Numbered from the stretch's first letter, positions 34,144 through 61,300 are shown. The stretch is 64,000 nucleotides of DNA from a candidate division WOR-3 bacterium (GCA_016867815.1 VGIR01000004.1:488-64487); one strand, 5' to 3'. Notes: generated by a model from the sequence alone, not told the origin. A program made the numbers and translations.

Positions 34144-34261
34144 GGCCTGCATTCGGGCGGAACCGGGCCGGGCAGAAGCGCGGATGCGGAAGGCGTCACC
34201 GGCGCTACGTTGTCTCCGCTACCTTGACTTTCCTGAGGGAGGAGCTATTGTTTCCCTCGCC

Positions 34262-35584: not shown

Positions 35585-35593
35585 GGAGCGGCG

Positions 35594-36496: not shown

Positions 36497-36517
36497 GGAG
36501 AAGTCGGGGTACAGAAA

Positions 36518-46149: not shown

Positions 46150-47112
46150 ATGCAATCCAGTGCGGTGTGGAACAGTGGCAGACGCGGACTCCGCAGGAAG
46201 CACCTCGGGAGTTTCCGTGCACCAGAAGGCAGAGGAGGTAGTGTGGGACTGACAGAAACTGGATCCGAGCGCTTCCGGGCAGTACCGTTCCCAATCCAAA
46301 GGCGGCTCGTCGTCGACGCCGGGCGGCATGCGCGACGGATGAGCCTCGTCCACGGGTTGCTGGAGTTCGACATCACGCTGGTTCGGAGGCGTCTGCAGGC
46401 GGAGCGGGAGCGCACCGGCGAGCGGCCGTCGCTGACTGCCTACATGGCGGCATGCCTTGGCCGGGCCGTGGCTGCCGACCGCTCGGTGCAGGCATACCGG
46501 GACTGGCGGAATCGGCTGGTCATCTTTGATGATGTCGATATTGCCCTGATGGTTGAGATGCGCACCGCTGCCGGTTCGTTCCCCGTGGTTCACGTTGTGC
46601 GAGCGGCCGACAAGCGGAGTCTCCGCCAGATCGACGCGGAAATCCGCGAACTGCGCACCGGTCGGCAGGATCACATCGGGCTGGGGTACGGACGGGGCGC
46701 GAGGTTGTTCGCGCGACTGCCGCGGTTCGTGCGCGATCTCGTCTACCGCTACTACAAGGCCGAACCGTGTCGCTGGAAGCAACAGGGCGGCACCGTAGGT
46801 CTGACCGCCGTCGGGATGCTCGGGCAAGGTGGTGGCTGGGGCATTCACTGCTCCAACAGCAACCTGAGCGTCTGCACCGGTGGCATCACCGAGAGGCCGG
46901 TCTACATCGACAACGTCCTGACGAGACGCGAGTTCCTGTGCGTGACCGTGGCCTTCAATCACGACATCGTTGACGGCGGACCGGCGGCACGGTTCGTGAC
47001 CCTTTTCAGGCGGCTGGTTGAGACCGCGGCGCTGCTGAGTCCTGAGGCGGAGGCTCCGATTCATGACCGGGCCGCCAGGCACGAGTTGGCGGTCACGGTC
47101 CAATCGGCCTGA
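46150..47112 (+). CDS. 2-oxoacid dehydrogenase E2 catalytic-domain-like (CAT-fold) acyltransferase. No lipoyl or E1/E3-binding domain.
   Basis: A FNHDIVDGGPAARF catalytic H-x-x-x-D-G motif and the preceding ..RAVPFP..RR.VA.... block match E2 catalytic domains. The true start is probably internal. The antisense ORF 46108-47133 is rejected. Confidence 0.55.
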   Translation: MQSSAVWNSGRRGLRRKHLGSFRAPEGRGGSVGLTETGSERFRAVPFPIQRRLVVDAGRHARRMSLVHGLLEFDITLVRRRLQAERERTGERPSLTAYMAACLGRAVAADRSVQAYRDWRNRLVIFDDVDIALMVEMRTAAGSFPVVHVVRAADKRSLRQIDAEIRELRTGRQDHIGLGYGRGARLFARLPRFVRDLVYRYYKAEPCRWKQQGGTVGLTAVGMLGQGGGWGIHCSNSNLSVCTGGITERPVYIDNVLTRREFLCVTVAFNHDIVDGGPAARFVTLFRRLVETAALLSPEAEAPIHDRAARHELAVTVQSA

Positions 47113-47218: not shown

Positions 47219-48589
47219 ATGAGAGAGAGAGACAGCAGGGGTCTCCGGCCGCTGGTGTACGTGGTCGATGACGAACCGCTGGTGGCCAGAGCGCTGTCCG
47301 CTATGCTGCGACAGGCCGGCTGTGAGGCGACCGTGTTCGACACGGGCCCGGCCGCGCTGGCGGCGCTGAACCAGGTCCGGCCGCAGCTGGTGATGCTGGA
47401 CCTGGCCATGCCGGAGATGGATGGCATCGAGACGCTGCGCCGCATCCGCCTGGCCGCACCTGACCTGCCCGTGGTGATGGTGTCGGGCCATGGGACAATC
47501 CGCGCCGCGGTGGACGCACTTAGACTCGGCGCCTTCGACTTCCTGGAAAAGCCGGTTGACCAGGAACGGATGGAAGCTGCGCTTGCCCGGGCGCTGGAAT
47601 GCTCGCAGTTGCGGCGCCAGGTGAGCGTGCTGCGGGCGGAGCTCGGGGAGCGGTTCCGGATGGTCGGCAGCTCAGGGGCGCTGGACCAGGTGAAGGACCT
47701 CGTAGGCCGGGCCGCGCCGACCGCGGCTGGGGTGCTGATTACCGGCGAGACCGGCGTGGGCAAAGAGCTGGTGGCGCGGGCGATTCACCTGCAGAGCCCG
47801 CGGCAGGCTGAGCCGTTTGTGGCACTCAACTGCGCCGCGATTCCCAAGGAGTTGATTGAAAGCGAGTTGTTCGGGCACGAGCGGGGCGCGTTCACCGGCG
47901 CCGAGGCCGCGCGCAAAGGCAAGCTGCAGGAGGCCGACAAGGGCACGCTGTTCCTGGACGAGGTCGCCGACATGAGTCTCGCAGCGCAGGCCAAGTTGCT
48001 TCGTTTTCTCGAGCATCCTGAGGTCGAGAGGCTGGGCTCGAACGAAAAGCACCTGCTGGACGTGCGGGTACTTGCCGCCACCAACAAGAACCTCGCGGCG
48101 TCTATCAAGGACGGCTCTTTCCGCGAGGACCTTTTCCACCGCCTGAACGTTGTGAGTATCAAAGTCCCGGCGCTGCGCGAGCGCCCGGAAGACATTGAGC
48201 AGTTGACCGCGTTCTTCCTCGAACGGTTCTGCCGGCAGTACAACCGGGTGCTGGCTCTTGCCCCGGAATGCCCGGCCGTTCTGCGCGACTACCACTGGCC
48301 CGGAAACGTGCGCGAGCTGCGCAACCTGATGGAGCGGGTAGCCGTGCTGGCCAGGACTAACCCGGTCGAGCCGGACGAGCTGCTGGCGTTCATTGGTCTC
48401 GAGACTCAGGTGCGCCATGACGGAACACTGAAGGCTACCTTGGACCGGGCCGAGCGCGAGGCCGTAGAAGGGGCGCTGGCTGCCGAAGAAGGCGTTGTTA
48501 GCGCGGCAGCGCGGAGGCTCGGCGTGGAGCGCGCCAGCCTGTACCGGATCATGAAGCGGCACGGCATCGCTCACGAGACGGCCGACTGA
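47219..48589 (+). CDS. Sigma54-dependent Fis-family response regulator (REC, AAA+ sigma54-interaction and HTH domains), NtrC-like.
   Basis: Receiver D54-like (VMLDLAMPEMDG). GETGVGKE Walker A, ESELFGHERGAFTGA GAFTGA motif, arginine finger, C-terminal HTH. Confidence 0.85.
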   Translation: MRERDSRGLRPLVYVVDDEPLVARALSAMLRQAGCEATVFDTGPAALAALNQVRPQLVMLDLAMPEMDGIETLRRIRLAAPDLPVVMVSGHGTIRAAVDALRLGAFDFLEKPVDQERMEAALARALECSQLRRQVSVLRAELGERFRMVGSSGALDQVKDLVGRAAPTAAGVLITGETGVGKELVARAIHLQSPRQAEPFVALNCAAIPKELIESELFGHERGAFTGAEAARKGKLQEADKGTLFLDEVADMSLAAQAKLLRFLEHPEVERLGSNEKHLLDVRVLAATNKNLAASIKDGSFREDLFHRLNVVSIKVPALRERPEDIEQLTAFFLERFCRQYNRVLALAPECPAVLRDYHWPGNVRELRNLMERVAVLARTNPVEPDELLAFIGLETQVRHDGTLKATLDRAEREAVEGALAAEEGVVSAAARRLGVERASLYRIMKRHGIAHETAD

Positions 48590-48780: not shown

Positions 48781-49596
48781 TCAACTGGGCGTGGACGGGA
48801 CGTCCGCTCGGCGCGGGCCAGGGCGGCGGACCCGCATCCGGAGGAAGTAGACCACCAGCGCCGCGGCGAGGAAGGCGCCGCCGTAGAGCAGGCTGCCGAG
48901 CAAGGCCTGGCCGACGCCGTGGTGGGTGAACGCCGCGGTCATGCTCAACTGCGACGGGTAGAAGGCGGGCAGCCGGCGGATGATGACCTGGTTTTGCGCG
49001 CCCGCGTAGTAGACCGGGTTCTGGAGCCAGGCCGCGTCGATGTTGGCCAAGAGGGCGATGAAGAGCACTCCTTCGAGCTCGCGGCGGAAGATGGCGCCGA
49101 TGAGGAGGCCGTAGCAGCCGTAGACGAACCCGGCCAGGGCAAAGCCGGCGATGACGAGGACGAGCCGTTCGGGCTCGAAGAAGAGCGGCAGGAGCTCGGC
49201 AACGAAGGCGCCGATGATGATGGTAACAATGAGGAGCACGGCGAGCTTGGCCGCGATGAGCTCAAGCGGGCGATAGCCGCAGAGGACGAGCCGACGGTTG
49301 GTCTCGACGTTCTTCTGGACAAGGCCGAGCGCGAGGAACGCGGTGAGCAGGCCGACCGCGGCGGTACCGATGAAGATGAGGTTGGTGCTGCGCTCGCTGA
49401 CCTGAACGAACGGGTTGCCCGGGATGGAGGCGAGCTTGAACGCGATCTTGGTGGTCCTGGTGGTCAGGACGACCAGTGTGTCGAAGAGCGCCGGGATGAT
49501 GAAGAGCATCAAGAGGGCGACGCGGTTGCGGGCGAGCTCCTGTCCGGTAAGCGCGAGCGCGGTACCGAAGCGGCGGGCAGAGGAGCCGCGCTTCAT
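48781..49596 (-). CDS. ABC-2 type transporter permease.
   Basis: Six predicted TM helices. Start overlaps the ATPase stop (4 nt). Confidence 0.75.
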   Translation of the reverse strand: MKRGSSARRFGTALALTGQELARNRVALLMLFIIPALFDTLVVLTTRTTKIAFKLASIPGNPFVQVSERSTNLIFIGTAAVGLLTAFLALGLVQKNVETNRRLVLCGYRPLELIAAKLAVLLIVTIIIGAFVAELLPLFFEPERLVLVIAGFALAGFVYGCYGLLIGAIFRRELEGVLFIALLANIDAAWLQNPVYYAGAQNQVIIRRLPAFYPSQLSMTAAFTHHGVGQALLGSLLYGGAFLAAALVVYFLRMRVRRPGPRRADVPSTPS

Positions 49597-50231
49597 CTCG
49601 TGGCCTCCGGTTCGAGTCGACCGGCGACGATACGGTAGAGCGAGTCGAACCGGGCGCGGTCCTGGACGAAGTGCGACACCACGAGCACGGCCCGCTTTCT
49701 CTCCCGCAGTTCGGCGGTGAGTTCCCAGAAGTGGAGGTAGGTCTCCCAGTCGAAGCCGGAGTAGGGCTCGTCGAGGACGAGGATGTCGGGGTCATGTAGG
49801 TAGGCGATGGCGAGGTTCAGTTTCTGGCGGGTGCCGCCGCTCAAGTGGTTGACCATGGTGTCGGCGTAGCGCTCGAACTTGAGCTGGCCGAGCAAGACCT
49901 GCATGCGCTTTGGCCAGTCGGCGCGGCCGTAGGCAGCGGCGAAGTAGCGGAAGTTCTCGCGCACGGTGAGCGTTTCGAAGACGAGCATCTCCTGCGGGCA
50001 ATGGCCGACGCGGCCGGACATGACGACCGTGCCGGCGTCGGGCCTGAGGCGGCCGACAATGATGTTGAGGAGGGTGCTCTTGCCCGAGCCGTTCTCGCCG
50101 GTGACGCCGGCTATTTCGCCGGGAGCGAGGCTGAGGCTCGCGTCCAAAAGAACGCGGTTGCGTCCGAACGACTTGGCCACGTTCCGGGCGAAGAGGAGCG
50201 GCCGCGTCGCCGGGTCAGTCGAAGAGGGCAT
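49593..50231 (-). CDS. ABC transporter ATP-binding protein.
   Basis: Walker A GENGSGKST, signature LSGGTRQK, Walker B ILVLDEP. Confidence 0.85.
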   Translation of the reverse strand: MPSSTDPATRPLLFARNVAKSFGRNRVLLDASLSLAPGEIAGVTGENGSGKSTLLNIIVGRLRPDAGTVVMSGRVGHCPQEMLVFETLTVRENFRYFAAAYGRADWPKRMQVLLGQLKFERYADTMVNHLSGGTRQKLNLAIAYLHDPDILVLDEPYSGFDWETYLHFWELTAELRERKRAVLVVSHFVQDRARFDSLYRIVAGRLEPEATR

Positions 50232-51114
50232 ATTCGTCTAACAGCGGCACTTCGGTGCGGAGCGTGGTCCCTGAGTGTTCGATGCGGGCTACGGCGCGGC
50301 CGGTGAACTTGACCCCGCGCGGGTTGCGGGTGATGCGGCGCAGAAGCGGCCCGGAGATAAACTCGGACTCGACCGCGGCGCTTTCGTGGACGACATCGAG
50401 TTCCACGCCGAGGCCGGGCCCGGTTGCGTTCAGGCGATAGCGGGAGGGGCACGCGATGCCGAGTTCCGGCGAAGGCCGCCACTCGGACGGCTCGACCTTA
50501 ACATCAGTCGCGACGATCACGCGCTCGCCGATCCGGAGGACAAGTCGCGGCCAGGCGCCGGCGGGACCGGATGCAACGGTGTAGGTCAGATCGCAGTAGG
50601 AATCATGGGCGCGGCCCCAGAAGAGCGTGCGGACAGGGACGGACGGCGGGAGTACGGTCGAGCGGAGATAGTCGTCGTAGCCCCGCACGTTCGAGGCGAC
50701 AATCGTCCTGCCCCGGAGTTGAACCTCACCCTGGACCATGGCGCCGAGCATTACCGGTTGCCAGAGCACAGTGCCGCGGCGCGCGGCAATCGCGAGGCCG
50801 GGGTCGGTCAGCGGCCGGGCCGTGTACTCAAGCCGGACTGAGGCGTCGGGCAGGTTGACGGCGACGGATGCGGCGGCCGGGCTGAACGTGAGCCGGCCGG
50901 CGGGGAAGTCGATGGTGGGAGTAGCGCCGCCGCTGACCTCTGCCGGCAGGCGGCCGGACCACTTCACCGGCTCATCGGTCCCGGCGCGGCGGAGGTGGAG
51001 CGCGAGTTCGGATGTGCGGGTGCCGAGGAATGCGACCTGGGCAAAGTAGCCGAAGAAGTAGTCGCCGGCTTCGGTCAGGAAGTCGAAGTACCACTTCTCC
51101 AACTGGTAGAGCAT
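50215..51114 (-). CDS. Hypothetical protein (~300 aa, soluble beta-rich; family unassigned, possibly a lipocalin/CrtC-like fold). Start at the internal MLYQLEKWYFDF.
   Basis: ATGA overlap with the upstream radical-SAM gene's stop. 17-nt overlap with the downstream ABC ATPase start. Confidence 0.5.
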   Translation of the reverse strand: MLYQLEKWYFDFLTEAGDYFFGYFAQVAFLGTRTSELALHLRRAGTDEPVKWSGRLPAEVSGGATPTIDFPAGRLTFSPAAASVAVNLPDASVRLEYTARPLTDPGLAIAARRGTVLWQPVMLGAMVQGEVQLRGRTIVASNVRGYDDYLRSTVLPPSVPVRTLFWGRAHDSYCDLTYTVASGPAGAWPRLVLRIGERVIVATDVKVEPSEWRPSPELGIACPSRYRLNATGPGLGVELDVVHESAAVESEFISGPLLRRITRNPRGVKFTGRAVARIEHSGTTLRTEVPLLDEYALFD

Positions 51115-52283
51115 CAGAAGAACGAGGGGGCCCGGTCGGTCAGTTCGCTTCCCCGGTAAGGGCCGGGATGCGGGCCGAGACACCGGCTGTCGCGGCGCGC
51201 GTAGGTGCCGTAGAGTGCCATGTTGCCGGCGCGGCAGCCGCCGGCGCAGGCCGACTTGTACGCGCAGGGCTCGCACTCTTCAGGCGTGCTCTTGAACTCG
51301 ACGAGGGCCGGGTTGGAGAAGCGACCGTGGTAGATGGTCCAGATGTCTTGCTCGGCAATGTTGCCGAGCGGGATGTCAACGATGAACGGGCAGGGCTGGA
51401 CCGATCCGTCGACCTTCACGGTCAGGACGAAGTTGCCGCCGGAGCAGGCGTTGCCGGTCAGCTCGTAGAAGCGGCGGACGAAGCGGGCGTGGTCCGGGTT
51501 CTCTTCGAGCAGTGCCCAGTGCTTGACGTCGGCCCAGGTTCGGGCCGGCACCTGGAGCGGGTCGTCTTTCATCTGCGGTGTGTATTGGTAGAAGATGGCG
51601 TGGGCGTCGAGCGCGCCACGGGCAAAGCGGTCGATCTGGCGGCAGTGCGCGGCGTTCAGGCTGTGGACCGCGCTGAAGGTGTAGACCCGGATGCCGGCGG
51701 CGCGCAGGTTGCGGATGCCCGCGACGGTGCGCGCATGGGAGCCAGGGCTGCCGGTGAACTCGTCGTGGGTCGCCGGGTCGTGGGAGATGAGTGAAACGAT
51801 GCCGGCGTCGAGCCCGGCCGCAGCGAGCTCGCGGCAGAGCGCAGGTTCGGCGGTCGTGCCGTTGGTATAGAGCGTCACGAACGGCGAGCGGGCCCGATGC
51901 TTGGCCGCGCGCACGATTTCCGCGATGCCGGGCATGAGCAGCGGCTCGCCGCCGAGCAGTTCGACCCTGACCCCGCACCCGCTGATGTCGTCGAGCAGGC
52001 GGTCTACCTGGTCGCGAGGCAGCTCCTTCTTCCCGGCCGGCACGTAGCACATGCGGCAGGAGAGGTTGCAGTAGTTGTTCAGTTCGACCTTGAGCGAGTA
52101 GAGGTAGGCGCCGACCAGTCGCCGGGCGGAGCGGGCGTAGAGCTGGGCAGCGGGCGGTGTCGTGGGCAGGCTGCCGAAGAGGTCGAGCAGGCGGAACTGG
52201 ACCCGGGTGATGGTGCGGTTCTTCTGCCGGCACCAGCGGTCGAGCGGCGCGTTCGTCGTGATGGGGCGGCCGTAGTCGAGCAT
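51114..52283 (-). CDS. Radical SAM enzyme with a C-terminal SPASM domain.
   Basis: CNLSCRMCY (CxxxCxxC). C-terminal CEPCAYKSACAGGCRAGN...C cluster typical of SPASM/twitch auxiliary Fe-S domains. Start at the internal MLDYGRP, 2 nt after the upstream stop. Confidence 0.8.
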   Translation of the reverse strand: MLDYGRPITTNAPLDRWCRQKNRTITRVQFRLLDLFGSLPTTPPAAQLYARSARRLVGAYLYSLKVELNNYCNLSCRMCYVPAGKKELPRDQVDRLLDDISGCGVRVELLGGEPLLMPGIAEIVRAAKHRARSPFVTLYTNGTTAEPALCRELAAAGLDAGIVSLISHDPATHDEFTGSPGSHARTVAGIRNLRAAGIRVYTFSAVHSLNAAHCRQIDRFARGALDAHAIFYQYTPQMKDDPLQVPARTWADVKHWALLEENPDHARFVRRFYELTGNACSGGNFVLTVKVDGSVQPCPFIVDIPLGNIAEQDIWTIYHGRFSNPALVEFKSTPEECEPCAYKSACAGGCRAGNMALYGTYARRDSRCLGPHPGPYRGSELTDRAPSFF

Positions 52284-52285
52284 GT

Positions 52286-53971
52286 TCAGCGCGTATTGGG
52301 TTCGATACCCAGTTCGTTGCGCATGATCGCGACGATGAAGTCCTGCCACTTCAGCACGCTCTCGGAAGGGAAGGTGAGCTGATAGAGCCGGCCGGCTGCG
52401 GCGTCGTAGAGCTGGAGCTTGCGGTTACTTTCGGTCGTGACCGAGCGGACCGCTGCGAGGTCGATTATGCGCGCACCGTTCGTTCCCTGGATGCCGAGGG
52501 AGCGGCGGCCGAGGGTCAGCCAGCCGGTGAGCACGGACTTGAGTTCGGTGCCGGTCTCTTCCCAGAGCTCGGCTGAGTCGGCGGCAGCGATGAGTCCTTC
52601 AGGGCCGGCAAGGTCGGCGGCCCTAATGCGAATCCGGTCGTAGACCGCGGCCAGCGGCATATCAAATGCCGCGTCGGCTTCAGACCAGCCGATAGAGTAC
52701 TCCGGGCTGATGGTGAAGGAGCGGCCGCAGTCAGGGCAGTTCAAACCGGCCGGCCCGGAGAGAGCGAGCGGACGGAAACTGCGGCAGGACGGGCAGCGGT
52801 ATACAATCTTGGTGAGTCCTGAGTTCAGTCTCCGGCTCAGGCAGCGGCGGCCCGAGTCGTCGGGCTCGATGAGCGAGCGGAGATGTCGCTCGAGCGCCCC
52901 GGTGTCGGCTCCGGGGCGCACCTTCACCGGCGCGCCGATTGCGAGTTCGACACGCGCGCGGCGCAGGTTCGATCCCCAGCGCGGCCAGGCGAGGTAGTTG
53001 CCCGAGATCCGTACCGGCACGATCGGTACATCCGGAAAATGGACGAAGAGGTTGAGCACCTCGGGCTTCCACGCCTGGGTAAGGCCGCTCCACGACCGCT
53101 CGCCTTCGGGGAAGACGCCGACGACTGCTGCTCCTTTCAGGCGCGCGGCAATCGCGCGAGCGGCGCTCACATCGTTCAGGTAGCGTTTCTTCGGAATGCA
53201 GAGGAACCTGCGAAATAGCGCGCCGAGCCGGGGACTGCGGAACATCTCGTACGTGGTGATGAAGTGGACCGGGAACCCGGCGCCGGCGCCGATGAAGGAA
53301 GGGTCGAGGTAGTTCCGGTGGGCCGCGATGATGAAGAACGGCGGCGCAAGCGGCAGGTTCTCCTTCCCGCGAATGCGGAGGTCGAACAGCACCCAGCAGA
53401 CCAGCCGAAAGAACGGGAGCAGGATGAACCCGAGGCGCGGGACGAGGAGCGGCGTGCGCCGGCAGTAGTTGCGCCAGGCGGTCCCGAAGCGGCGGTCGAG
53501 CGCGCGCTCTTCGAGGGCGATGTAGCCGGCCTCGGCCGCGACAAAGGCAGGCAGGACGATCAAGAGCAGGGACAGCGAGCGTACCAGCAGGCCGACGCCG
53601 ACGAAGAAGAGGGTGAAGAAGAGGTAGATCGGGTGGCGCCAGACCGCGTAGAGCCCGGCCTGGATGAGCCGGTCGGGCGGGAGGGCCGAGACCGGCATCG
53701 CCCGGCCGAAGTGCCGGAACTGGACGATCGAGGTGCCGAGCATCAGACCCGAGCTGACGACGATGAGTCCGCCTACGACGGTCCAGAACCATGTGAAGGC
53801 GATGTGCCAGCCCAATCGTCGGTCGAGAAAGAGCGCGCTTGCCAAGAGCAGCGCGGGCAGCACGAGCCAGAAAAGGACGATGTAGACGGCGAGCAGCAGG
53901 CCCCGGCGGATGCTACATCTCCCCGAGGTGAGAGTAGACGGTCGTCCGGAGCGGTTCGTCGACAGCAGCAC
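52286..53971 (-). CDS. Fusion protein with an N-terminal PEMT/ICMT-family membrane SAM-dependent lipid methyltransferase, a PlsC-type (lysophospholipid) acyltransferase domain, and a C-terminal Cys-containing domain.
   Basis: RHPIYLFF...EE.AL...FG..WRNYCRRTP matches the ICMT/PEMT motifs. AAHRNYLD (HxxxxD) and FPEGERS match LPLAT/PlsC motifs. About 5 TM helices. The 5' end overlaps the upstream rSAM by ~59 nt, so the start may be a non-ATG codon further in. Confidence 0.7.
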   Translation of the reverse strand: MLLSTNRSGRPSTLTSGRCSIRRGLLLAVYIVLFWLVLPALLLASALFLDRRLGWHIAFTWFWTVVGGLIVVSSGLMLGTSIVQFRHFGRAMPVSALPPDRLIQAGLYAVWRHPIYLFFTLFFVGVGLLVRSLSLLLIVLPAFVAAEAGYIALEERALDRRFGTAWRNYCRRTPLLVPRLGFILLPFFRLVCWVLFDLRIRGKENLPLAPPFFIIAAHRNYLDPSFIGAGAGFPVHFITTYEMFRSPRLGALFRRFLCIPKKRYLNDVSAARAIAARLKGAAVVGVFPEGERSWSGLTQAWKPEVLNLFVHFPDVPIVPVRISGNYLAWPRWGSNLRRARVELAIGAPVKVRPGADTGALERHLRSLIEPDDSGRRCLSRRLNSGLTKIVYRCPSCRSFRPLALSGPAGLNCPDCGRSFTISPEYSIGWSEADAAFDMPLAAVYDRIRIRAADLAGPEGLIAAADSAELWEETGTELKSVLTGWLTLGRRSLGIQGTNGARIIDLAAVRSVTTESNRKLQLYDAAAGRLYQLTFPSESVLKWQDFIVAIMRNELGIEPNTR

Positions 53972-55097
53972 TGCCGGCGCCCGGCAACGGGCTGATACGG
54001 TCGGCCACGCACACCGGGGTCAGGCGGCCGTTGCGGATGGTGGCGTCCGGGCAGTGGTAGCACATCTGAACCGCGTTCCTTTCGGCATTGAACGTCGGCG
54101 GCTCCTGCAGAACGATGTAGTGGAGCCGGATGTCCCCGGCGCCGCGGCTGTCGCGCATCAGGGCGATGAAGCGGCCGACCCGGCCGGGATGGAGCAGCAG
54201 TTCGAGGAGAATCGAACCGTAGAAGGAGAACGAGACCCTTTCCGGCCGGGTGGTCATCCCGAACGCGTAGCGGCCGTTGATGACGCGGAACGCCCACCGG
54301 AGCAGCCGGTTGAGCTGGGGCGAGAGTCCGAACGTTTCGCCGGTGCGGGCGTTGATGTTGTAGAAGTAGATGAGCCAGCTCACGTCGTCATCGCTGAGGC
54401 TGGTCGGCAGGTAGGTGACCGGCTCTACCTTGAGGTCTTGTGCGATGGTGCGGTACTCGGTCAGCATCTCAGAGCCGAAGCCGTGGCCATGGGTGGGGCT
54501 GCGACCCGCGTCGCGCGGAAGCGTCACGAGCACACCGTCAAAGAAGCGGAAGCGCGACCAGCGGCGCATCACCTGAGAAATGGTGCCGCTCGACTCGGGG
54601 TAGACCGTGACCGCGAGAGCGGCCCAGAGCCGGCGCGACTCGGCCATGCCGAGCAGCCGCTCGCAGTCGGCATCGGGATCGGGGCGGACATGCGTTTGAC
54701 CGCAGTCAACGTGGAACGCGATGCGGTCCAGCCCGGCGGTGACGAGCGCGTCCAAGTACTCGTCCCCGTCCGGTTCGAGCAGACGAAGCCCGTTGGTCAG
54801 CATTTCGCAGTAGAGGTTTTGCCTCCTGATGTAGCGGATGATCTGGGGCAGGTCGGGGTGGAGCGTGGGCTCGCCACCGAGGATGCTGATGGTCTCCAAT
54901 CGGCGCTTGGACAGCCCGAGGTCGATCTCGGCGCGGATCTGGTCGAGCGTCTTGTCCGGGGCGCGGAAGCGATTGTAGCAGGCGCGGCAGCCGAGATTGC
55001 AGCGCAGCGTGGGCTCGAGCACGAGGTGCGGTATTTCGCCAAGCGGCAGCTTCATCGGCCTGATGCCGTTGCCGGGCCGCATCTGCCTGACGTTCAC
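53913..55097 (-). CDS. Radical SAM enzyme (second) with a partial C-terminal Cys motif (CYHCPD...C).
   Basis: CNLGCRACY CxxxCxxC near the N-terminus. The true start is probably the internal ATG (MRPGNG.. or MKLPLG..). Confidence 0.75.
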   Translation of the reverse strand: MNVRQMRPGNGIRPMKLPLGEIPHLVLEPTLRCNLGCRACYNRFRAPDKTLDQIRAEIDLGLSKRRLETISILGGEPTLHPDLPQIIRYIRRQNLYCEMLTNGLRLLEPDGDEYLDALVTAGLDRIAFHVDCGQTHVRPDPDADCERLLGMAESRRLWAALAVTVYPESSGTISQVMRRWSRFRFFDGVLVTLPRDAGRSPTHGHGFGSEMLTEYRTIAQDLKVEPVTYLPTSLSDDDVSWLIYFYNINARTGETFGLSPQLNRLLRWAFRVINGRYAFGMTTRPERVSFSFYGSILLELLLHPGRVGRFIALMRDSRGAGDIRLHYIVLQEPPTFNAERNAVQMCYHCPDATIRNGRLTPVCVADRISPLPGAGSAAVDEPLRTTVYSHLGEM

Positions 55098-55330
55098 TCT
55101 GGCTTCCTCGCGCCCAGAGAGTAGTGATCCGGCCGGTGGGAGTCAAGCAATGGAGCGGGCCCAAGCGACCGACTCTTGCGCCTCCAGAGCATGACGGGTG
55201 TTCTGCAGCTTGAATGCCAGGCAGTGAGACATACAAGTTGCGTCACCAATGAAGAGCGAGGTCCGGGACTTGTCTCTCAATGGTGACGTTGAGTCGCTGT
55301 TCGGACACATCCCGGCGGCGTCCGGGCGGC

Positions 55331-55356
55331 TGGAACCGGAAGGGCGGGACGCGAAT
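55331..55356 (-). terminator. GC-rich hairpin (GGGCGGG...CCCGCCC) just downstream of the giant-gene stop on the minus strand.
   Basis: 7-bp GC stem with a ~12-nt loop. No U-tract. Confidence 0.3.
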
Positions 55357-55384
55357 GCGCCCCGCCCGTGAGATCCGTACAGCC

Positions 55385-58300
55385 CTAGTGTATCTTAGTG
55401 GCCTTGCGGGTGAGGACTGTGCCTTCGCTCTCCATTCGCCAGAAGTAGATGCCCGGAGCCACGCTCCGGCCCGAGTTGTCGCGTCCGTCCCAAGCCAGGG
55501 TATAGGTGCCAGGGGCGAGGGACTTGGGCCCGGAGAGGGTTCGGACGAGGGTGCCGGTGACGGAGCGGACGGTGACGTTCACTCGGGTCCGGCGCGGGAG
55601 GCTGAGCCTGATGGTAGCACATCCGCGCATCGGGTCAGGCCGTGGCCGTTCCAGCGCGAGCACCCTGGGCAGGACTTGCAGTTCGGCCACGCCGGTGTAG
55701 GTCTCGACGAAGACCGAGTCATGGATTGCGTCGTTCGTCGGGTCCATGTCGGTTGCGAGCGTCGTGGCGCACAGGGTTGGGAACGTTCCGGGTGCGAAGG
55801 CGGTCCAGGCTGCGAAGTCGAGCGTGTCTGTCTGCCCGGCAGTCAGCGTGACCGACACCGTGTCAGCGAAGCCGGCGCCGACCGCGAACCGTACGTTGAA
55901 CATCTCCGCGGTGGTACCGAGATTCTCGACCACGGCCCGCGGCACAACAGTTGCGCCGGAGTCGACCGTGTCCCGCGGTGCCAGAAGTTGGGTGCAGGCG
56001 ACGTCGCGCACGCGCACGGTCACCAGACCCGGCAATGTATCGTTGGCCCGGTTGTTGTCGCCGGAAAGCGCGGTGGAACAGCGGACCCCGTTGTCGCCGC
56101 GCGCCGTCGCCGTCCACGTCGCGAAGCTCACCGAAGCTGAGTCGCCCGCCGCGAGATTGGTAACGTTCTGGGTATCCGCGTAGGCGCCGATGCGGAAGAC
56201 GACCGGGAAAGATGTCGCTCCTGTCCCGTAGTTTCTGACCCGCGCCTGCGGGTTGACCGCCGCGCCGGAATCAACGGTGTCGGTCGGCGCTACGATGGCA
56301 GTAACGCCGACGTTGAGCACTCGCACCGTCACTGCGCCGGACAGTGTGTCGTTGGTGTCGACCTGGTCGCCCGTAAGGTCGGTGGAGCAGCGCACGGACA
56401 ACAGGCCGCGCGGTGAAGCCGTCCAGTTTGCGAAGTTCACTTCAATCGAATCGCCGGGCGCAAGGTCGGTGACGGTCTGGGTGTTGGTGTAGTTCGGAAA
56501 GAGGGATACCGGTGAGGGGTTCGAGCCGGCGCCGGTACGGTTCATCCTCGCGCTGATGGATTTGTTGCCGGTGGCCGGCTCGACCGGGATGGTAGCGGCA
56601 GACGTGCCGGCGCTCCGGCCACTCTTCAGGTTCGCACCAATGGACATGGTTATCGGGAACGTCGCGGCGGTGTTGCCGTGATTCCGTACCCGGGCCTTCG
56701 GGGTGATGCTCGCACCCGAGTCGACCGTGCCGGCCGGTGCGACGATGGCCGTCACGCCGACATTGGTCACCCGTACCGCCACCGAGCCGGAGAGCGTGTC
56801 ATTGGCGCGGTGCTCGTCTCCGGCGAGCGCGGTGGAACAGCGAGTCGCATGGGTGCCGCGCTGCAGCGCGGTCCAGTTAGTGAATGAGACAAGGACCGAG
56901 TCACCGGCCGCAAGGTTCGATACAGTCTGGGTGTTGGAGTAGAACGAGCCAATACTGAAGTAGACCGGGAACGAGGCGGCGGACGATCCATAGTTCCTGA
57001 CCCTGGCCTGGGGCGTGACAGTGGTGCCCGAATCGAGCGTCCCGGTCGGTGCGACAATCGCGGTAACGCCGACGTCCAAAGTGGGCGGAGGCACGACAGT
57101 GACAAGGCCAGATAGCGTATCGTTTGTCTGCACCTGGTCATTGGCCAGGCCGGTCGAGCAGCGTTTGACATGGGTGCCAAGCTGCAGCGCGCTCCAACCA
57201 AGGAAGGTCACCTGAGCCGAGTCGCCGGCCGCGAGGTTCGTGACGGTCTGGGAGTCGGAGTAGAACGAGCCGATGCGGAAAGTGACCGGGAAAGTGGCGG
57301 CAGCCGTGCCGTAGTTCCTCACCCGGGCCTTTGGCGCAACGACCGTGCCCGAATCGACGGTGTCGACGGGCGCGGTGATCGCGAAGACACCGACATTCGT
57401 GACACGTACAGCTACCGAGCCGGAGAGCGTGTCGTTGGCGTGATTCTGGTCATTGGTGAGGTCGGTGGAGCAGCGAGTGACGTGGGTGCCGCGCTGCGTC
57501 GCGGTCCAATTGGTGAACGAGACCAGCGCCGAGTCACCAGCCGCGAGGTTGGTGACCGTCTGCGTGTTGGTGTAGAAGGAGCCGATGCGGAAGGTGGTTG
57601 GGAATGTGGCGGCGCCGGTGCCGTAGTTCCTCACCTTGGCCTGCGGGGTTACGGTCGTGCCGGAATCGAGCGTACCGGTCGGGGCCACGATTGCGGTAAC
57701 ACCGACATTGAGCACGCGCACCGTCACCGAACCGGAGAGCGTGTCGTTAGCGGGATACTGGTCGCCAACCAGCGCCGTAGAACAGCGCGTTGCGTGCGTG
57801 CCGCGTTGCGTCGCGGTCCAGTTCGTGAATGAGACAAGGGCCGAGTCGCCGGCAGCCAGATTGGTGACGTTCTGGGTGTTGGAGTAGAAGGAGCCGACCC
57901 GGAACGTGACCGGGAACGTAGCGGCGCCGGTGCCGTAGTTCCGCGCTCTGGCTCTTGGTGTCACGACCGTGCCCGAGTCGATGGTGCCGGTCGGCGCGAC
58001 CAACGCGGTCATGCCGACATTGATGACCCGCACGGTGACGGAGCCAGCCAGCGTGTCGTTCGTCTTGTCCTGGTCGCCGGTCAGCGCGGTGGAGCAACGG
58101 GTAGCGTGGGTGCCGCGTTGCGTCGCGATCCAGTTCGTGAACGACACCAGCAGGGAGTCGCCGGGCGCGAGGTTGGAGACATTCTGGGTATTGTTGTAGA
58201 AGGAACCGATCTTGAACGTGACCGGAAAGGTGACAGAACCGGTGCCGTAGTTCCTGACTCTGGCTCTCGGCGTCACGACCGTGCCCGAGTCAACCGTGCC

Positions 58301-61300
58301 GATAGGCGCGACAATCGTTGTGACGCCAACGTTGGTGACCCGCACTGTAACGGACCCCGGCAGCGTGTCGTTGGCTTTGTTCTGGTCGCCGGCGAGCGCG
58401 GTGGAGCAGCGAGTGGCGTGGGTGCCGCGTTGCGTCGCGGTCCAGTTGGTGAGCGATACCAGCACGGAGTCTCCGGGCGCCAGGTTACTGACATTCTGGG
58501 AGTTGTTGTAGAACGAACCGATCTTGAAGAAGGCCGGGAACGAAACCGCATCGGTGCCGTAGTTCCTGACTCTGGCCTGAGGCGCAACGGTCGTGCCGGA
58601 GTCGACCGTGCCGGTCGGGGCGACAATAGCTGTTACACCGACATCGGTTACTCGAACCTTCACCGTCCCGGACAGCGTATCGTTAGTGTGTACCTGGTCG
58701 CCCGCAAGTGCGGTGGAGCAGCGCGTGGTGTGCGTGCCGCGTTGCGTGGCGGTCCAGTTGCTGAACGAGACCACAGTCGAATCACCGGCCGCGAGGTTCG
58801 TCACGGTCTGGGAATTGGAGTAGAAGGAACCGATCTTGAAGAAGGCCGGGAACGAAGCCGGATCGGTGCCGTAGTTCCTGACTTTGGCCTGAGGCGCAAT
58901 GGTCGTGCCGGAGTCCACGATGCCGGTGGGTGCGACGATGGCGGTTATCCCGACATTCGTCACCCGCACCTTCACGGAACCGGACAGCGTGTCGTTGCTG
59001 TGCACCTGGTCGCCGGCGAGGTCGGTGGAGCAGCGCGTGATGTGCGTGCCGCGTTGTACTGCGGTCCATGCGGCGAACGAAACCAGGGTTGAGTCACCGG
59101 CCGCAAGGTCGGTGACGTTCTGCGAATTGGAGTAGAAGGCGCCGATGCGGAAGAAGACGGGGAACGAAGCAGGGCCGGTGCCGTAGTTCCTGACCCGGGC
59201 CTGGGGCGTGACCGACGTGCTGGAGTCAACAGTGCCGATGGGCGCGACGATTGCGGCCACGCCGACATTGGTTACGCGCACCATCACGGTGCCGGCCAGG
59301 GTGTCGTTGGCGCGGTACTGGTCGCCGGAGAGGTCGGTCGAGCAGCGCACGGACAAGAGGCCGCGCGGCGCAGCAGCCCAGTTGGTGAAGCTGACCAGGA
59401 GTGAGTCACCGGCCGCAAGGCTGGTAACCGTCTGGGTGTTGGTGTAGCCGGTGCCGATGCGCATCGTGACCGGGAAGGTGGCGGCGGACGTGCCGTAATT
59501 CTTGACGCGGGCCTGGGGTGTTACCGTCGTACCGGAGTCGACGGTGCCCGTGGGCGCGAGGATTGCGGTCACCCCGACATTGGTGACTCGCACGGTCACG
59601 GAACCGGACAGCGCGTCGTTTGTGGGGACCTGGTCGCCGGTGAGGGCGGTGGAGCAGCGGGTGGCGTGGGTGCCACGCTGCGTGGCGGTCCAGTTTGTGA
59701 ACGACACCGAGGCCGAGTCCCCGGCCGCAAGGCTCGTGACATTCTGGGTGTTGGAGTAGAACGAGCCGATGCGGAAGGTCACCGGGAATGTCGCCGCTGC
59801 CGTGCCGTAGTTCTTCACCCGGGCCTGCGGGGTGACGGTCGTACCGGAGTCGATTGTGCCCGTGGGTGCAACAATTGTGGCCACACCGACATCGGCTACC
59901 CGCACCATCACGGTGCCCGCCAGTGTGTCGTTAGTGTGGTACTGGTCGCCGGAGAGGTTGGTCGAGCAGCGCACAGACAGCAGGCCGCGCGGTGCCGCCG
60001 TCCAGTTGATGAAGTTGACCAGGAGCGAGTCGCCGGCAGCGAGGCTGGTGACCGTCTGGGTGTTGGTGTAGCCGGTGCCGATACGCAGCGTTACCGGGAA
60101 AGTGGCTGCTGCCGTGCCGCAGTTCTTCACCCGGGCCTTTGGGGTGACGACTGCACCCGAATCGACCGTGCCGGTGGGTGCGACAATCGCGGTTACGCCG
60201 ACGTCAGTTACCCGCACCGTGACCGAGCCGGCGAGCGTGTCGTTGGTGTGGTTCTGATCGCCCGAGAGGTTGGTCGAGCAGCGCGTGACGTGGGTGCCCC
60301 GCTGAGTTGCGGTCCAGTTGGTGAACGATACCAGCGCCGAGTCACCGGCCGCCAGGTTGGTTACCGTCTGAGTATTGGAGTAGAAGGAGCCTATCCGGAA
60401 GGTGACAGGGAATGTTGCCGCTGCCGTGCCGTAGTTCCTGACCCTGGATTGCGGAGCAACGGTCGTGCCGGAATCGATTGTACCGGCGGGGACGACGATG
60501 GCGTTGACACCGACATCGAGCACCCGCACCGTCACCGTACCGGGCAGCGTGTCGTTACTGCGCAGTTGGTCACCGGCGAGGGCGGTGGAGCAGCGGGTAG
60601 CGTGGGTGCCGCGCTGCACTGCGGTCCAGTTGGTGAAGCTGACCTGAACTGAGTCGCCGGCGGCAAGACTCGTCACGGTCTGCGTGTTTGTGTAGAACGA
60701 GCCGATGCGGAAAGTTACCGGGAACGTGGCCGCTGCCGTACCGTAGTTCTTCACCCGGGCCTGCGGGGTGACCACGGTGCCCGAGTCGACGGTACCCGTG
60801 GGCGCGAGGATTGCGGCCACCCCGACATCGGTGACTCGCACGGTCACGGAACCGGAAAGCGCATCGTTGCCGGGGACCTGGTCGCCGGTGAGGGCGGTGG
60901 AACAGCGGGTGGTGTGCGTGCCGCGCTGCGTAGCGGTCCAGTTCGTGAATGACACCAGGGCCGAGTCACCAGCCGCGAGGTTGGTGACGGTCTGCGAGTT
61001 GGAGTAGAAAGAACCGATCTTGAAGTAGACGGGGAAAGTCGCGGTGGATGTACCTGAGTTCTTCACGCGAGCCTGCGGTGTCACGGTAGTGCCGGAGTCG
61101 ATGGTGCCGGTGGGCGAGACAATCGCGGTCACGCCGACGTTGGTCACCTTGACCGTCACGGAACCCGATAGTGCGTCGTTGGCGAGGTTCTGGTCACTTG
61201 TCAGGGCGGTCGTGCAGCGAGTGGTGTGCGTTCCGCGCTGCGTCGCGGTCCAACTGGTGAATGACACCAGGGCCGAGTCCCCCGGCGCGAGGTTGATGAC

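What the first reader, a model, noticed from the sequence alone, without database searches (positions are those of the whole stretch)
48781..55384. Six-gene operon combining two radical SAM enzymes (one SPASM) with a lipid methyltransferase/PlsC acyltransferase fusion and an ABC exporter: a candidate uncharacterised membrane-lipid tailoring or maturation system
Six minus-strand genes are translationally coupled through overlapping stop and start codons. In transcription order they are rSAM-2, a PEMT/ICMT-like membrane methyltransferase fused to a PlsC-type lysophospholipid acyltransferase, an rSAM with a SPASM domain, an unknown ~300-aa protein, an ABC ATPase and an ABC-2 permease. PEMT/ICMT and PlsC domains both act on membrane lipids. 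Radical SAM enzymes are the chemistry used for C-C bond formation or methylation on unactivated lipid carbons, as in archaeal and bacterial tetraether/membrane-spanning lipid synthases and hopanoid or tuberculostearate-type methylations. I do not recognise an rSAM plus lipid-MTase-PlsC fusion plus exporter operon as a described pathway. An alternative reading is a RiPP-type system (rSAM-SPASM maturase plus ABC exporter). A sigma54 activator gene converges on the operon's 3' end.
Basis: partly seen in the sequence, partly recalled or inferred. Interest (0 to 1): 0.72.

Follow-up and report, generated by a model that had tools for sequence, protein, structure and literature searches.

The report
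Uncharacterised anaerobe lipid-tailoring gene cassette
Six tightly packed genes in an uncultivated WOR-3 bacterium form a cassette that recurs across several phyla of uncultivated anaerobes, most likely remodels the hydrocarbon part of a membrane lipid without oxygen and exports the product, and matches no described pathway.

Summary
The window matches a candidate division WOR-3 MAG.

New findings:
- The fusion protein has four modules: ICMT/PEMT-like membrane methyltransferase, PlsC acyltransferase with an intact HX4D motif, zinc ribbon, and PH-like domain.
- The cassette is conserved. All six genes recur in Bacteroidota, Calditrichota and WOR-3-like contigs, and sub-sets recur in Aminicenantes, KSB1 and Bipolaricaulota. 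In 25 of 28 well-flanked loci the fusion sits next to at least one partner, most often the rSAM-SPASM (20 of 28).
- Variants add a PAP2 lipid phosphatase, or fuse AttH-like + ICMT-like + Lgt domains.
- There is no conserved precursor-peptide ORF and no RRE hit, so the RiPP reading is not supported.
- Neither rSAM reaches any NCBIfam equivalog cut-off (Tes, HpnH, NirJ, PqqE and others).
- The sigma54-type motif exists but is not conserved in the two closest relatives.

Best reading: an O2-independent lipid-tail tailoring and export module, analogous to the archaeal Ted/Hgs pair. The product is unknown.

The parts
53913..55097 (-). rSAM2: radical SAM enzyme without a SPASM domain (394 aa from GTG 55097). 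It has the CX3CX2C motif (C28/C32/C35 in the numbering that starts at ATG 55082). Its ~250-aa C-terminal domain of unknown type ends in an invariant CxxC-x13-C motif.
   Evidence: Pfam Radical_SAM 66 bits. No NCBIfam cut-off is reached; the best hits are TrsS at 55 bits against a cut-off of 490 and Tes at 40 against 450. The Cys motifs are invariant in 11-14 homologues. The GTG/TTG start and the GAGGAAG Shine-Dalgarno sequence are conserved in L086 and L088.
52286..53971 (-). Four-module fusion protein (561 aa). Modules: ICMT/PEMT-like membrane methyltransferase (aa ~20-196; 53384-53914); PlsC/LPLAT acyltransferase (aa ~198-345; 52937-53380); Cys4 zinc ribbon (aa 391-416; 52724-52801); PH-like domain (aa ~456-556; 52304-52606).
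   Evidence: Pfam PEMT 36 bits, ICMT 24 bits, Acyltransferase 60 bits. Invariant in 20 homologues: WRHPIYLF, EE..L..RFG, H218-x4-D223, FPEGER, C393/C396/C412/C415. AF2 model pLDDT 87. Foldseek hits: TmPlsC 5kym, Ma-ICMT 4a2n, and the GRK2 and Dbs PH domains. PDB profile search: 5kym at 2.5e-21 and 4a2n at 7e-10.
51114..52283 (-). rSAM-SPASM enzyme (389 aa from ATG 52283) with a complete 7-Cys SPASM motif, implying two auxiliary Fe-S clusters. It is the best conserved gene of the cassette, at about 50% identity across phyla.
   Evidence: Pfam Radical_SAM 66 bits and SPASM 31 bits. Best NCBIfam hits NirJ2 at 112 bits (cut-off 500) and GeoRSP at 110 (cut-off 400) fall below their cut-offs. PDB best hit SkfB at 4.5e-13. 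All 10 Cys are conserved in 33-34 of 34 homologues. It is adjacent to the fusion in 20 of 28 loci.
50215..51114 (-). AttH/CrtC-like double beta-barrel protein (299 aa). It has no signal peptide. The family has invariant polar residues K7, D11, Y146, D148, R168, K269 and E294.
49593..50231 (-). ABC transporter ATPase (212 aa), of the ABC-2/DrrA-like short type.
   Evidence: Pfam ABC_tran 100 bits. NCBIfam RbbA, DrrA and NodI hits are below their cut-offs. It co-occurs with the permease in 9 of 28 loci at 44-55% identity.
48781..49596 (-). ABC-2 type membrane permease (271 aa).
   Evidence: Weak Pfam ABC2_membrane_3 hit, 22.5 bits, below the cut-off of 31.6. It is 47-57% identical to the permease in the same position of the cassette in other phyla.
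55118..55146 (-). Promoter-like element TTGACT-N17-TACTCT, followed by the Shine-Dalgarno sequence GAGGAAG (55103-55109). It is conserved in the two closest relatives while the rest of the upstream region has diverged.
   Evidence: Alignment of window, L086 and L088 upstream regions. The strict sigma70 consensus scan did not call it, because the -10 hexamer matches only 3 of 6.
55204..55219 (-). Sigma54-type -24/-12 motif TGGCATTCAAGCTGCA. It is present only in this genome.
   Evidence: It is the only match to TGGCAYN5YTGCW in the 64-kb window, with 0.2 expected. It is absent upstream of the cassette in L086, L088 and 27 other loci.
55342..55367 (-). GC-rich hairpin with an 11-bp stem, just after the stop codon of the upstream giant gene. 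It probably separates the two transcription units.
   Evidence: RNA fold of -37.5 kcal/mol, z = -4.7 against shuffles.

Best explanation
This is a modular, horizontally shared gene cassette of strict anaerobes. It most likely tailors the hydrocarbon part of a membrane glycerolipid, or a closely related hydrophobic lipid, without oxygen, and then moves the product across the cytoplasmic membrane.

Shown:
- Six co-oriented, tightly packed genes.
- Intact catalytic and cluster-binding motifs in both rSAMs.
- An intact SAM-binding ICMT-type motif and an intact HX4D acyltransferase motif in the fusion protein.
- An AttH/CrtC-type fold for the fourth protein.
- Conservation of the cassette and its sub-sets across phyla.
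- Recurrent recruitment of other glycerolipid enzymes (PAP2, Lgt domain).

Inferred mechanism:
1. One or both radical SAM enzymes abstract hydrogen from an unactivated C-H of a lipid tail. The result is an alkene or another activated intermediate.
2. The cytoplasmic AttH-like protein binds that tail in its barrel. It interconverts alkene and alcohol by hydration, or less likely cyclises the tail.
3. The membrane-embedded fusion protein finishes the lipid by O-acylation (PlsC module) and by methylation of a carboxyl, phosphate or hydroxyl group (ICMT-like module). Its PH-like and zinc-ribbon modules dock it to the lipid or to the rSAM-SPASM partner.
4. The ABC-2 exporter flips or extrudes the product towards the outer leaflet or outer membrane.

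The fusion plus the rSAM-SPASM is the commonest core. The AttH-like protein, rSAM2, the exporter and PAP2 are optional add-ons.
For: - Gene structure and coupling.
- Domains.
- Invariant catalytic motifs.
- All characterised structural neighbours act on hydrophobic tails: carotenoid- and kievitone-type hydratases, 25-phosphosteroid lyase, decalin Diels-Alderases.
- A direct precedent exists for an rSAM paired with an overlapping AttH-like gene acting on membrane lipids: Ted desaturase plus Hgs hydratase make hydroxy-GDGTs (bioRxiv 10.1101/2025.10.20.683597).
- Cross-phylum conservation: all six genes in L006 and L010 (Bacteroidota), L008 (Calditrichota), L086 and L088. Of 28 well-flanked loci, 25 have at least one partner next to the fusion.
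- Rosetta-stone protein P0185 = AttH-like + ICMT-like + Lgt, with an rSAM2 homologue (41% identity) 3 kb away.
- P0051 = ICMT-like + PAP2 + Lgt.
- A PAP2 gene lies inside or beside the cassette in four Acidobacteriota loci.
- A HlyIII/PAQR gene lies upstream of the fusion in six loci.
- No conserved small ORF flanks the cassette.
Against: - No substrate or product is known, and all carriers of the cassette are uncultivated.
- Neither rSAM is demonstrably related to a lipid-modifying rSAM beyond the common core.
- The nearest named families of the rSAM-SPASM are tetrapyrrole or peptide enzymes (NirJ2, GeoRSP, AhbD, SkfB, PqqE), all far below their cut-offs.
- The order of steps and the acceptor groups are guesses.
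- Many loci hold only two of the six genes, so the full pathway may differ between lineages.
- The AttH superfamily also contains Diels-Alderases, so hydration is not the only option.
- The Lgt and ICMT parallels could instead point to a cysteine-containing, peptide-like acceptor.
Confidence: 0.6

Rival explanations
1. The cassette makes a hydrophobic secondary metabolite rather than a bulk membrane lipid, for example an isoprenoid- or polyene-derived small molecule. In this reading the AttH-like protein acts as a cyclase or Diels-Alderase, the rSAMs and the methyltransferase/acyltransferase decorate the product, and the ABC-2 pump secretes it.
Against: No scaffold-forming gene (PKS, terpene synthase, prenyltransferase or NRPS) is in or beside any of the cassettes examined. 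The recruited partners (PlsC, Lgt, PAP2) are glycerolipid enzymes. The minimal two-gene versions could not build a scaffold.
Confidence: 0.15
2. The cassette modifies a lipidated cysteine on a protein or peptide. In this reading Lgt- or PlsC-type modules attach lipid, the ICMT-like module methylates the cysteine carboxylate as eukaryotic ICMT does, the rSAM-SPASM modifies the peptide, and the ABC-2 exporter releases it.
For: ICMT-family enzymes methylate S-lipidated C-terminal cysteines (established knowledge of the family; 4a2n and 5vg9 are hits). Lgt domains are fused to the same ICMT-like domain in P0185 and P0051. rSAM-SPASM enzymes are most often peptide modifiers, and SkfB and PqqE are among the best PDB hits.
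Against: No conserved small ORF or candidate substrate gene lies in or beside the cassettes. Pfam reports no PqqD-type recognition (RRE) domain in the rSAM-SPASM, and only about 70 residues precede its core. The AttH fold has no known peptide substrates. No signal peptidase II or Lnt-like partner is present.
Confidence: 0.1
3. This is a classical RiPP system, with the rSAM-SPASM as maturase and the ABC transporter as exporter.
For: The rSAM-SPASM plus ABC transporter pairing fits. Weak similarity exists to GeoRSP, SCM and sactipeptide maturases.
Against: All those matches are 3-10 fold below the family cut-offs. No conserved precursor ORF lies within 500 bp of 12 cassettes. The 32-codon ORF upstream of rSAM2 overlaps the conserved promoter-like element, and its start region is diverged in L086 and L088. 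There is no protease and no RRE. The commonest conserved pair is the rSAM-SPASM with the lipid-enzyme fusion.
Confidence: 0.05
4. The six genes are adjacent by chance and are functionally unrelated.
For: Only the sub-set variation between lineages could suggest this.
Against: The same genes recur together across at least five phylum-level lineages, while the flanking genes differ. A domain fusion links two of the families.
Confidence: 0.02

Closest known systems
Ted/Hgs pair of archaea: B12-radical SAM tetraether desaturase plus AttH-like hydroxy-GDGT synthase (bioRxiv 10.1101/2025.10.20.683597)
   Same: A radical SAM gene is translationally coupled with an AttH-like gene. Both occur in anaerobes. 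The established logic is O2-independent activation of an inert lipid tail followed by hydration. The window's fourth protein has the same fold class.
   Different: Ted is a B12-binding rSAM. Neither window rSAM gave a B12-binding domain hit in Pfam. The hosts here are bacteria, presumably with acyl rather than isoprenoid tails. The cassette adds a methyltransferase-acyltransferase fusion, a second rSAM and an exporter. Sequence relatedness of the AttH-like protein to Hgs was not tested, because no Hgs sequence was available.
Tes / GDGT-MAS and bacterial Mss (membrane-spanning lipid synthases)
   Same: These are radical SAM enzymes acting on lipid tails in anaerobes. GDGT-MAS (7tol) is the best PDB match of rSAM2.
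   Different: The match covers only the generic rSAM core (residues 16-121). The NCBIfam Tes model scores 40 bits against a cut-off of 450. The C-terminal domain gives no significant match. Mss was not tested.
PlsC (1-acyl-sn-glycerol-3-phosphate acyltransferase, T. maritima 5kym)
   Same: The fusion shares the LPLAT fold and the HX4D and FPEGxR motifs.
   Different: The TIGR00530 score of 46 is below its cut-off of 103. The domain is embedded between an ICMT-like membrane domain and zinc-ribbon plus PH-like modules. It is co-inherited with rSAM genes rather than with housekeeping phospholipid genes.
ICMT / PEMT / LmtA / MddA family of membrane methyltransferases
   Same: The fusion shares the multi-helix membrane domain and the conserved RHPxY and EE..L..FG SAM-binding motifs.
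   Different: No equivalog cut-off is met: isoprenylcysteine methyltransferase 37 bits against 160, LmtA 30 against 325, MddA 21 against 270. The methyl acceptor is unknown.
AttEFGH of Agrobacterium (ABC transporter plus AttH) and CrtC-type hydratases
   Different: The transporter here is ABC-2 type. The AttH-like protein has no signal peptide. There is no sequence-level Pfam match, apart from one family member with a weak Lipocalin_9 hit at E 0.009.

Membership tests
Tetraether lipid synthase Tes / GDGT-MAS (NF045702) | Whole-protein score at or above the NCBIfam equivalog cut-off (450 bits), with homology extending beyond the rSAM core into the lipid-binding and auxiliary-cluster domains. 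| tested here: not met
   rSAM2 scores 40.1 bits over residues 30-133 only. The PDB 7tol match is confined to core residues 16-121, and the C-terminal segment scores -2.5 bits.
Bacterial membrane-spanning lipid synthase Mss | Sequence homology to the T. maritima or T. ethanolicus Mss proteins. | not tested
   No Mss sequence or model was available in the tools. Only the review description was read.
HpnH adenosyl-hopene transferase (TIGR03470) | Score at or above 225 bits. | tested here: not met
   rSAM2 scores 36.4 bits.
RiPP rSAM-SPASM maturases (PqqE, SkfB, AlbA, GeoRSP, SCM and others) | Family cut-off reached, an N-terminal RRE/PqqD-like domain present, and an adjacent precursor peptide gene. 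| tested here: not met
   Scores against cut-offs: GeoRSP 110 vs 400, PqqE 75 vs 381, SkfB 49 vs 300. No PqqD hit. No conserved small ORF flanks 12 cassettes.
Tetrapyrrole rSAM-SPASM enzymes NirJ / AhbC / AhbD | Family cut-off reached (500-650 bits). | tested here: not met
   NirJ2 scores 112 bits, AhbD 96, NirJ 94. No heme d1 or ahb genes are nearby.
SPASM domain radical SAM enzymes (generic) | A CX3CX2C motif plus the 7-Cys SPASM motif. | tested here: met
   Pfam SPASM 31.3 bits against a cut-off of 21.5. All ten Cys are conserved in 33-34 of 34 homologues.
LPLAT / PlsC acyltransferase superfamily (PF01553) | Pfam gathering score reached, with HX4D and the EGxR block present. | tested here: met
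   59.5 bits against a cut-off of 23. H218, D223 and F287-P288-E289/R292 are invariant and E291 is nearly invariant. The fold matches 5kym. The canonical PlsC subfamily TIGR00530 is not met, at 46 bits against 103.
ICMT/PEMT membrane methyltransferase family (PF04191 / PF04140) | Pfam gathering score reached, with the SAM-binding motifs conserved. | tested here: met
   PEMT scores 36.3 bits against a cut-off of 25. ICMT scores 23.9 against 24, which is borderline. The WRHPIYLF and EE..L..RFG motifs are invariant. The fold matches 4a2n. Specific equivalogs are not met.
AttH / CrtC-like hydratase superfamily | The double beta-barrel fold, and a sequence match to Pfam CrtC or Lipocalin_9. | tested here: inconclusive
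Ted/Hgs-type lipid desaturase-hydratase system | A B12-binding radical SAM desaturase coupled to an AttH-like hydratase. | tested here: not met
   The Pfam hits listed for the two rSAMs include no B12-binding domain. The AttH-like partner is present. The resemblance is functional analogy only.
Sigma54-dependent operon | A -24/-12 promoter upstream that is conserved in orthologous loci, with a cognate activator linked. | tested here: inconclusive
   The motif is present and unique in the window, and an NtrC-type gene is adjacent. Neither the motif nor the activator is conserved in L086 or L088.

The most novel reading that the evidence does not exclude
The cassette is a bacterial counterpart of the archaeal Ted/Hgs route. 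It would perform oxygen-independent in-chain functionalisation of saturated acyl or alkyl tails: rSAM-driven desaturation or coupling, then AttH-type hydration. The dedicated methyltransferase-acyltransferase would then O-acylate and/or methylate the new group. The product would be a so far undescribed class of in-chain acyloxy, methoxy or otherwise branched membrane lipids, exported to the outer leaflet or outer membrane of uncultivated sediment anaerobes (WOR-3, Bacteroidota, Calditrichota, KSB1, Aminicenantes, Bipolaricaulota). Such lipids could be the source of orphan sedimentary biomarkers.
Probability: 0.2. Interest if true: 0.8.

Novelty: new variant of a known kind. Interest (0 to 1): 0.62.

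Why it matters
Radical SAM chemistry is how anaerobes modify inert lipid tails. Most known examples are archaeal (Tes, Gms, Grs, Ted) or involve hopanoids; the bacterial Mss is one of the few exceptions. The makers of many bacterial sedimentary lipids remain unknown.

This cassette is a compact unit of 2-6 genes that recurs in several phyla of uncultivated anaerobes and matches no curated family. It is a ready-made candidate for heterologous expression and lipidomics.

If it makes a new lipid class, it would add a biosynthetic marker for interpreting environmental lipid records. It would also add new rSAM and AttH-type enzyme activities. If the rival readings hold instead, it would reveal a new protein or peptide lipidation route.

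Tried and rejected
1. Sigma54 control. The motif was found, but it is not conserved in the nearest relatives or in 27 other loci. The activator gene is not syntenic. I kept it only as a genome-specific possibility.

2. Leader or precursor peptide. A 32-codon ORF runs from ATG ~55191 to a TGA that overlaps the rSAM2 GTG start. It spans the conserved promoter-like element, and the region holding its start codon is diverged in L086 and L088. A systematic search for conserved small ORFs within 500 bp of 12 cassettes found none shared beyond near-identical genomes.

3. C-terminal half of rSAM2. It gave no NCBIfam hit even at E <= 10. An apparent resemblance of its CYHCPD...C motif to the C-terminus of GDGT-MAS is not statistically significant.

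4. Athalassotoga and Mesoaciditoga (cultured Thermotogota). A high-scoring ABC ATPase 2.3 kb from their distant fusion homologue turned out to be a PnrA-type nucleoside importer, not the cassette exporter.

5. Recurrent extra neighbours. Clustering was swamped at first by shadow ORFs of GC-rich DNA. After filtering, only PAP2, HlyIII and MFP/RND genes recurred across lineages.

6. Word-indexed protein searches for the AttH-like protein reached few distant relatives. The exhaustive HMM search was needed.

7. The afdb50 fold library was unavailable.

8. Literature searches for this domain combination returned nothing relevant.

9. Neighbours of the ICMT-less PlsC-Zn-PH homologues in Spirochaetia and Deltaproteobacteria were not resolved, because there were too many spurious ORFs.

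Full report
**1. What is in the sequence**

The region 48781-55097 holds six minus-strand ORFs. Start-codon inspection and comparison with homologues give these genes:
- rSAM2, 53913-55097. The GTG start and the Shine-Dalgarno sequence GAGGAAG are conserved in relatives.
- Fusion protein, 52286-53971.
- rSAM-SPASM, 51114-52283.
- The ~300-aa unknown protein, 50215-51114.
- ABC ATPase, 49593-50231.
- ABC-2 permease, 48781-49596.

Four junctions overlap, by 59, 1, 17 and 4 nt, and one has a 2-nt gap. The fusion protein is 100% identical to hypothetical protein FJY68_01430 of a candidate division WOR-3 MAG.

Upstream lies a 2867-aa Peptidase_C1 + CARDB-repeat protein with a FlgD_ig tail (55385-63988). 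It ends in a strong GC hairpin. Downstream, an NtrC-type sigma54 activator gene converges on the operon.

**2. Domain content**

No protein reaches the cut-off of any curated equivalog family.
- rSAM2 scores 40 bits on the Tes model (cut-off 450) and 36 on HpnH (cut-off 225).
- The rSAM-SPASM scores 112 on NirJ2 (cut-off 500), 110 on GeoRSP (cut-off 400) and 75 on PqqE (cut-off 381).

The rSAM-SPASM family keeps CX3CX2C and all seven SPASM cysteines in 33-34 of 34 homologues. rSAM2 keeps its CX3CX2C and an invariant C-terminal CxxC-x13-C. Its C-terminal half matches nothing, even at E <= 10.

In the PDB, rSAM2's best hit is the tetraether synthase GDGT-MAS, but only over the generic core. The best hits of the rSAM-SPASM are SkfB, BlsE and PqqE.

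**3. The fusion protein has four modules**

An alignment of 20 homologues shows these invariant features:
- the ICMT-type SAM-binding motifs WRHPIYLF and EE..L..RFG;
- the acyltransferase HX4D (H218, D223) and FPEGER blocks;
- a Cys4 zinc ribbon;
- a conserved C-terminal domain.

The AlphaFold model (pLDDT 87) matches Ma-ICMT, T. maritima PlsC and eukaryotic PH domains. Both catalytic modules therefore look active, and the protein is not an ordinary PlsC.

**4. The unknown protein has an AttH/CrtC-like fold**

All of these act on hydrophobic tails, mostly interconverting alkenes and tertiary alcohols. The family is small, with 235 clusters at 50% identity among 1.84 billion representatives. 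It has invariant polar residues (K7, D11, Y146, D148, R168, K269, E294), which suggests an enzyme rather than a passive carrier. It has no signal peptide.

**5. Conservation**

A scan of one genome per GTDB species found 194 relatives of the fusion protein. The lineages are:
- Bacteroidota, Aminicenantes and other Acidobacteriota;
- Calditrichota, KSB1, WOR-3 and Aegiribacteria;
- Bipolaricaulota and MAGs labelled Thermotogae;
- Marinimicrobia and others.

All are MAGs. The one exception is a distant, stand-alone homologue in Athalassotoga saccharophila.

Searching the fetched loci with the six window proteins shows:
- All six genes in L006 and L010 (Bacteroidota) and L008 (Calditrichota), in the order rSAM2, fusion, SPASM, ATPase, permease, AttH-like.
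- The window's own order in L086 and L088, whose flanking genes are unrelated.
- In Aminicenantes: fusion, SPASM, AttH-like, PAP2, ATPase, permease.
- Many loci with only fusion + SPASM. These two genes are convergent in Bipolaricaulota.
- Bacteroidia with fusion + AttH-like only.

Counts among 28 non-redundant loci with enough flanking sequence:

| Gene adjacent to the fusion | Loci (of 28) |
|---|---|
| rSAM-SPASM | 20 |
| AttH-like protein | 14 |
| ABC ATPase + permease pair | 9 |
| rSAM2 | 8 |
| None of these | 3 |

The rSAM-SPASM is the most conserved gene, at about 50% identity across phyla, against 30-40% for the fusion and 22-32% for the AttH-like protein.

**6. Further links to lipid enzymes**

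- P0185 fuses an AttH-like domain, the ICMT-like domain and an Lgt (diacylglyceryl transferase) domain. Its locus also holds an rSAM2 homologue at 41% identity and remnants of the ABC genes.
- P0051 combines ICMT-like, PAP2 and Lgt domains.
- A PAP2 gene sits in or beside the cassette in four Acidobacteriota loci.
- A HlyIII/PAQR gene lies upstream of the fusion in six loci.

**7. RiPP and regulation**

No conserved small ORF flanks 12 cassettes. The rSAM-SPASM has no PqqD/RRE hit and only about 70 residues before its core. A 32-codon ORF upstream of rSAM2 spans the conserved promoter-like element, and its start region is diverged in the two closest relatives.

The sigma54-type motif TGGCATTCAAGCTGCA at 55204-55219 is the only match in the window, with 0.2 expected. 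It is missing in L086, L088 and 27 other loci. Those two relatives instead share TTGACT-N17-TACTCT just before the start codon. The strict sigma70 scan did not call this element. The NtrC gene is not syntenic in the relatives.

**8. Interpretation**

The best-supported reading is a modular cassette that tailors the hydrophobic part of a membrane lipid without oxygen and exports it. A recent preprint gives a direct precedent. An archaeal radical SAM desaturase (Ted) overlaps an AttH-like gene (Hgs), and together they turn saturated GDGT tails into hydroxy-GDGTs.

By analogy, I infer four steps:
1. The rSAM(s) activate a tail C-H.
2. The AttH-like protein hydrates or otherwise converts the intermediate.
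3. The ICMT-PlsC fusion caps it by methylation and/or acylation.
4. The ABC-2 pump translocates the product.

Only the parts list, the motifs, the fold and the synteny are shown. The substrates, the order of steps and the product are inferred.

Rival readings:
- A secreted hydrophobic metabolite, with the AttH-like protein acting as a cyclase.
- Modification of a lipidated cysteine on a peptide or protein, suggested by the ICMT and Lgt parallels.
- A classical RiPP system, which has little support.

**9. Novelty**

No curated family, solved structure or paper in the searchable library describes this combination. It belongs to a known kind, rSAM-based anaerobic lipid tailoring with an AttH-type partner. 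Its enzyme set, its bacterial hosts, and its dedicated methyltransferase-acyltransferase fusion and exporter are new. I rate it a new variant of a known kind, with moderate-to-high interest. The cassette is small enough to test by heterologous expression.

Noticed in passing
window 55385-63988 (-): Giant 2867-aa ORF. It has an N-terminal papain-type Peptidase_C1 domain, then about two dozen ~100-aa CARDB-like repeats, then a FlgD_ig-type C-terminal tail that I read as a T9SS sorting tail. Similar C1-peptidase/CARDB proteins lie downstream of the cassette in relative L086. It is not conserved as a neighbour, so it is probably unrelated to the cassette.
   Followed up: partly
window 55204-55219 (-) and 47219-48589 (+): A near-consensus sigma54 -24/-12 motif sits in the intergenic region upstream of the operon, and an NtrC-type response regulator/sigma54 activator converges on the operon's 3' end. 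Neither is conserved in the closest relatives.
   Followed up: yes
window 40859-42469 (+) and 42509-44341 (+): Two consecutive histidine kinase genes, the second with a PAS domain, lie 3-6 kb upstream of the NtrC-type regulator gene on the same strand. They may form a two-component module.
   Followed up: no
window 34184-37828 (+): Three consecutive SurA/PpiC-type peptidyl-prolyl isomerase paralogues.
   Followed up: no
L092 8001-10364 (JGI 3300025716 contig): A 787-aa protein fuses an AttH-like domain, an ICMT/PEMT-like domain and an Lgt domain. It is followed by fragments of the cassette's ABC genes, an Orn/Arg decarboxylase, an aldehyde dehydrogenase and an rSAM2 homologue.
   Followed up: partly
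L074 9902-11350 (Athalassotoga saccharophila NAS-01 chromosome): This is the only cultured organism in the set with a fusion-like protein. It is distant (25% identity), has PEMT + PlsC + zinc ribbon, and is 482 aa long. It stands alone, with no rSAM or AttH-like neighbour. It could serve as an experimental entry point for the fusion family.
   Followed up: partly
L079-L084, L069-L072, L077 (Spirochaetia, Myxococcota, Deltaproteobacteria MAGs): Shorter homologues cover only the PlsC + zinc-ribbon + PH-like part of the fusion (query residues ~171-546), without the ICMT-like domain. Their gene neighbourhoods were not resolved.
   Followed up: no
L004 3850-9735 and L008 9460-10512: RND/MFP/OEP efflux genes, or a HlyD-type membrane-fusion protein gene, lie directly beside the cassette in Aminicenantes and Calditrichota loci. 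This may extend export across the outer membrane.
   Followed up: no
window 46150-47112 (+): A 320-aa ORF with only the C-terminal catalytic part of a 2-oxoacid dehydrogenase acyltransferase domain. Its function and its relation to its neighbours are unknown.
   Followed up: no
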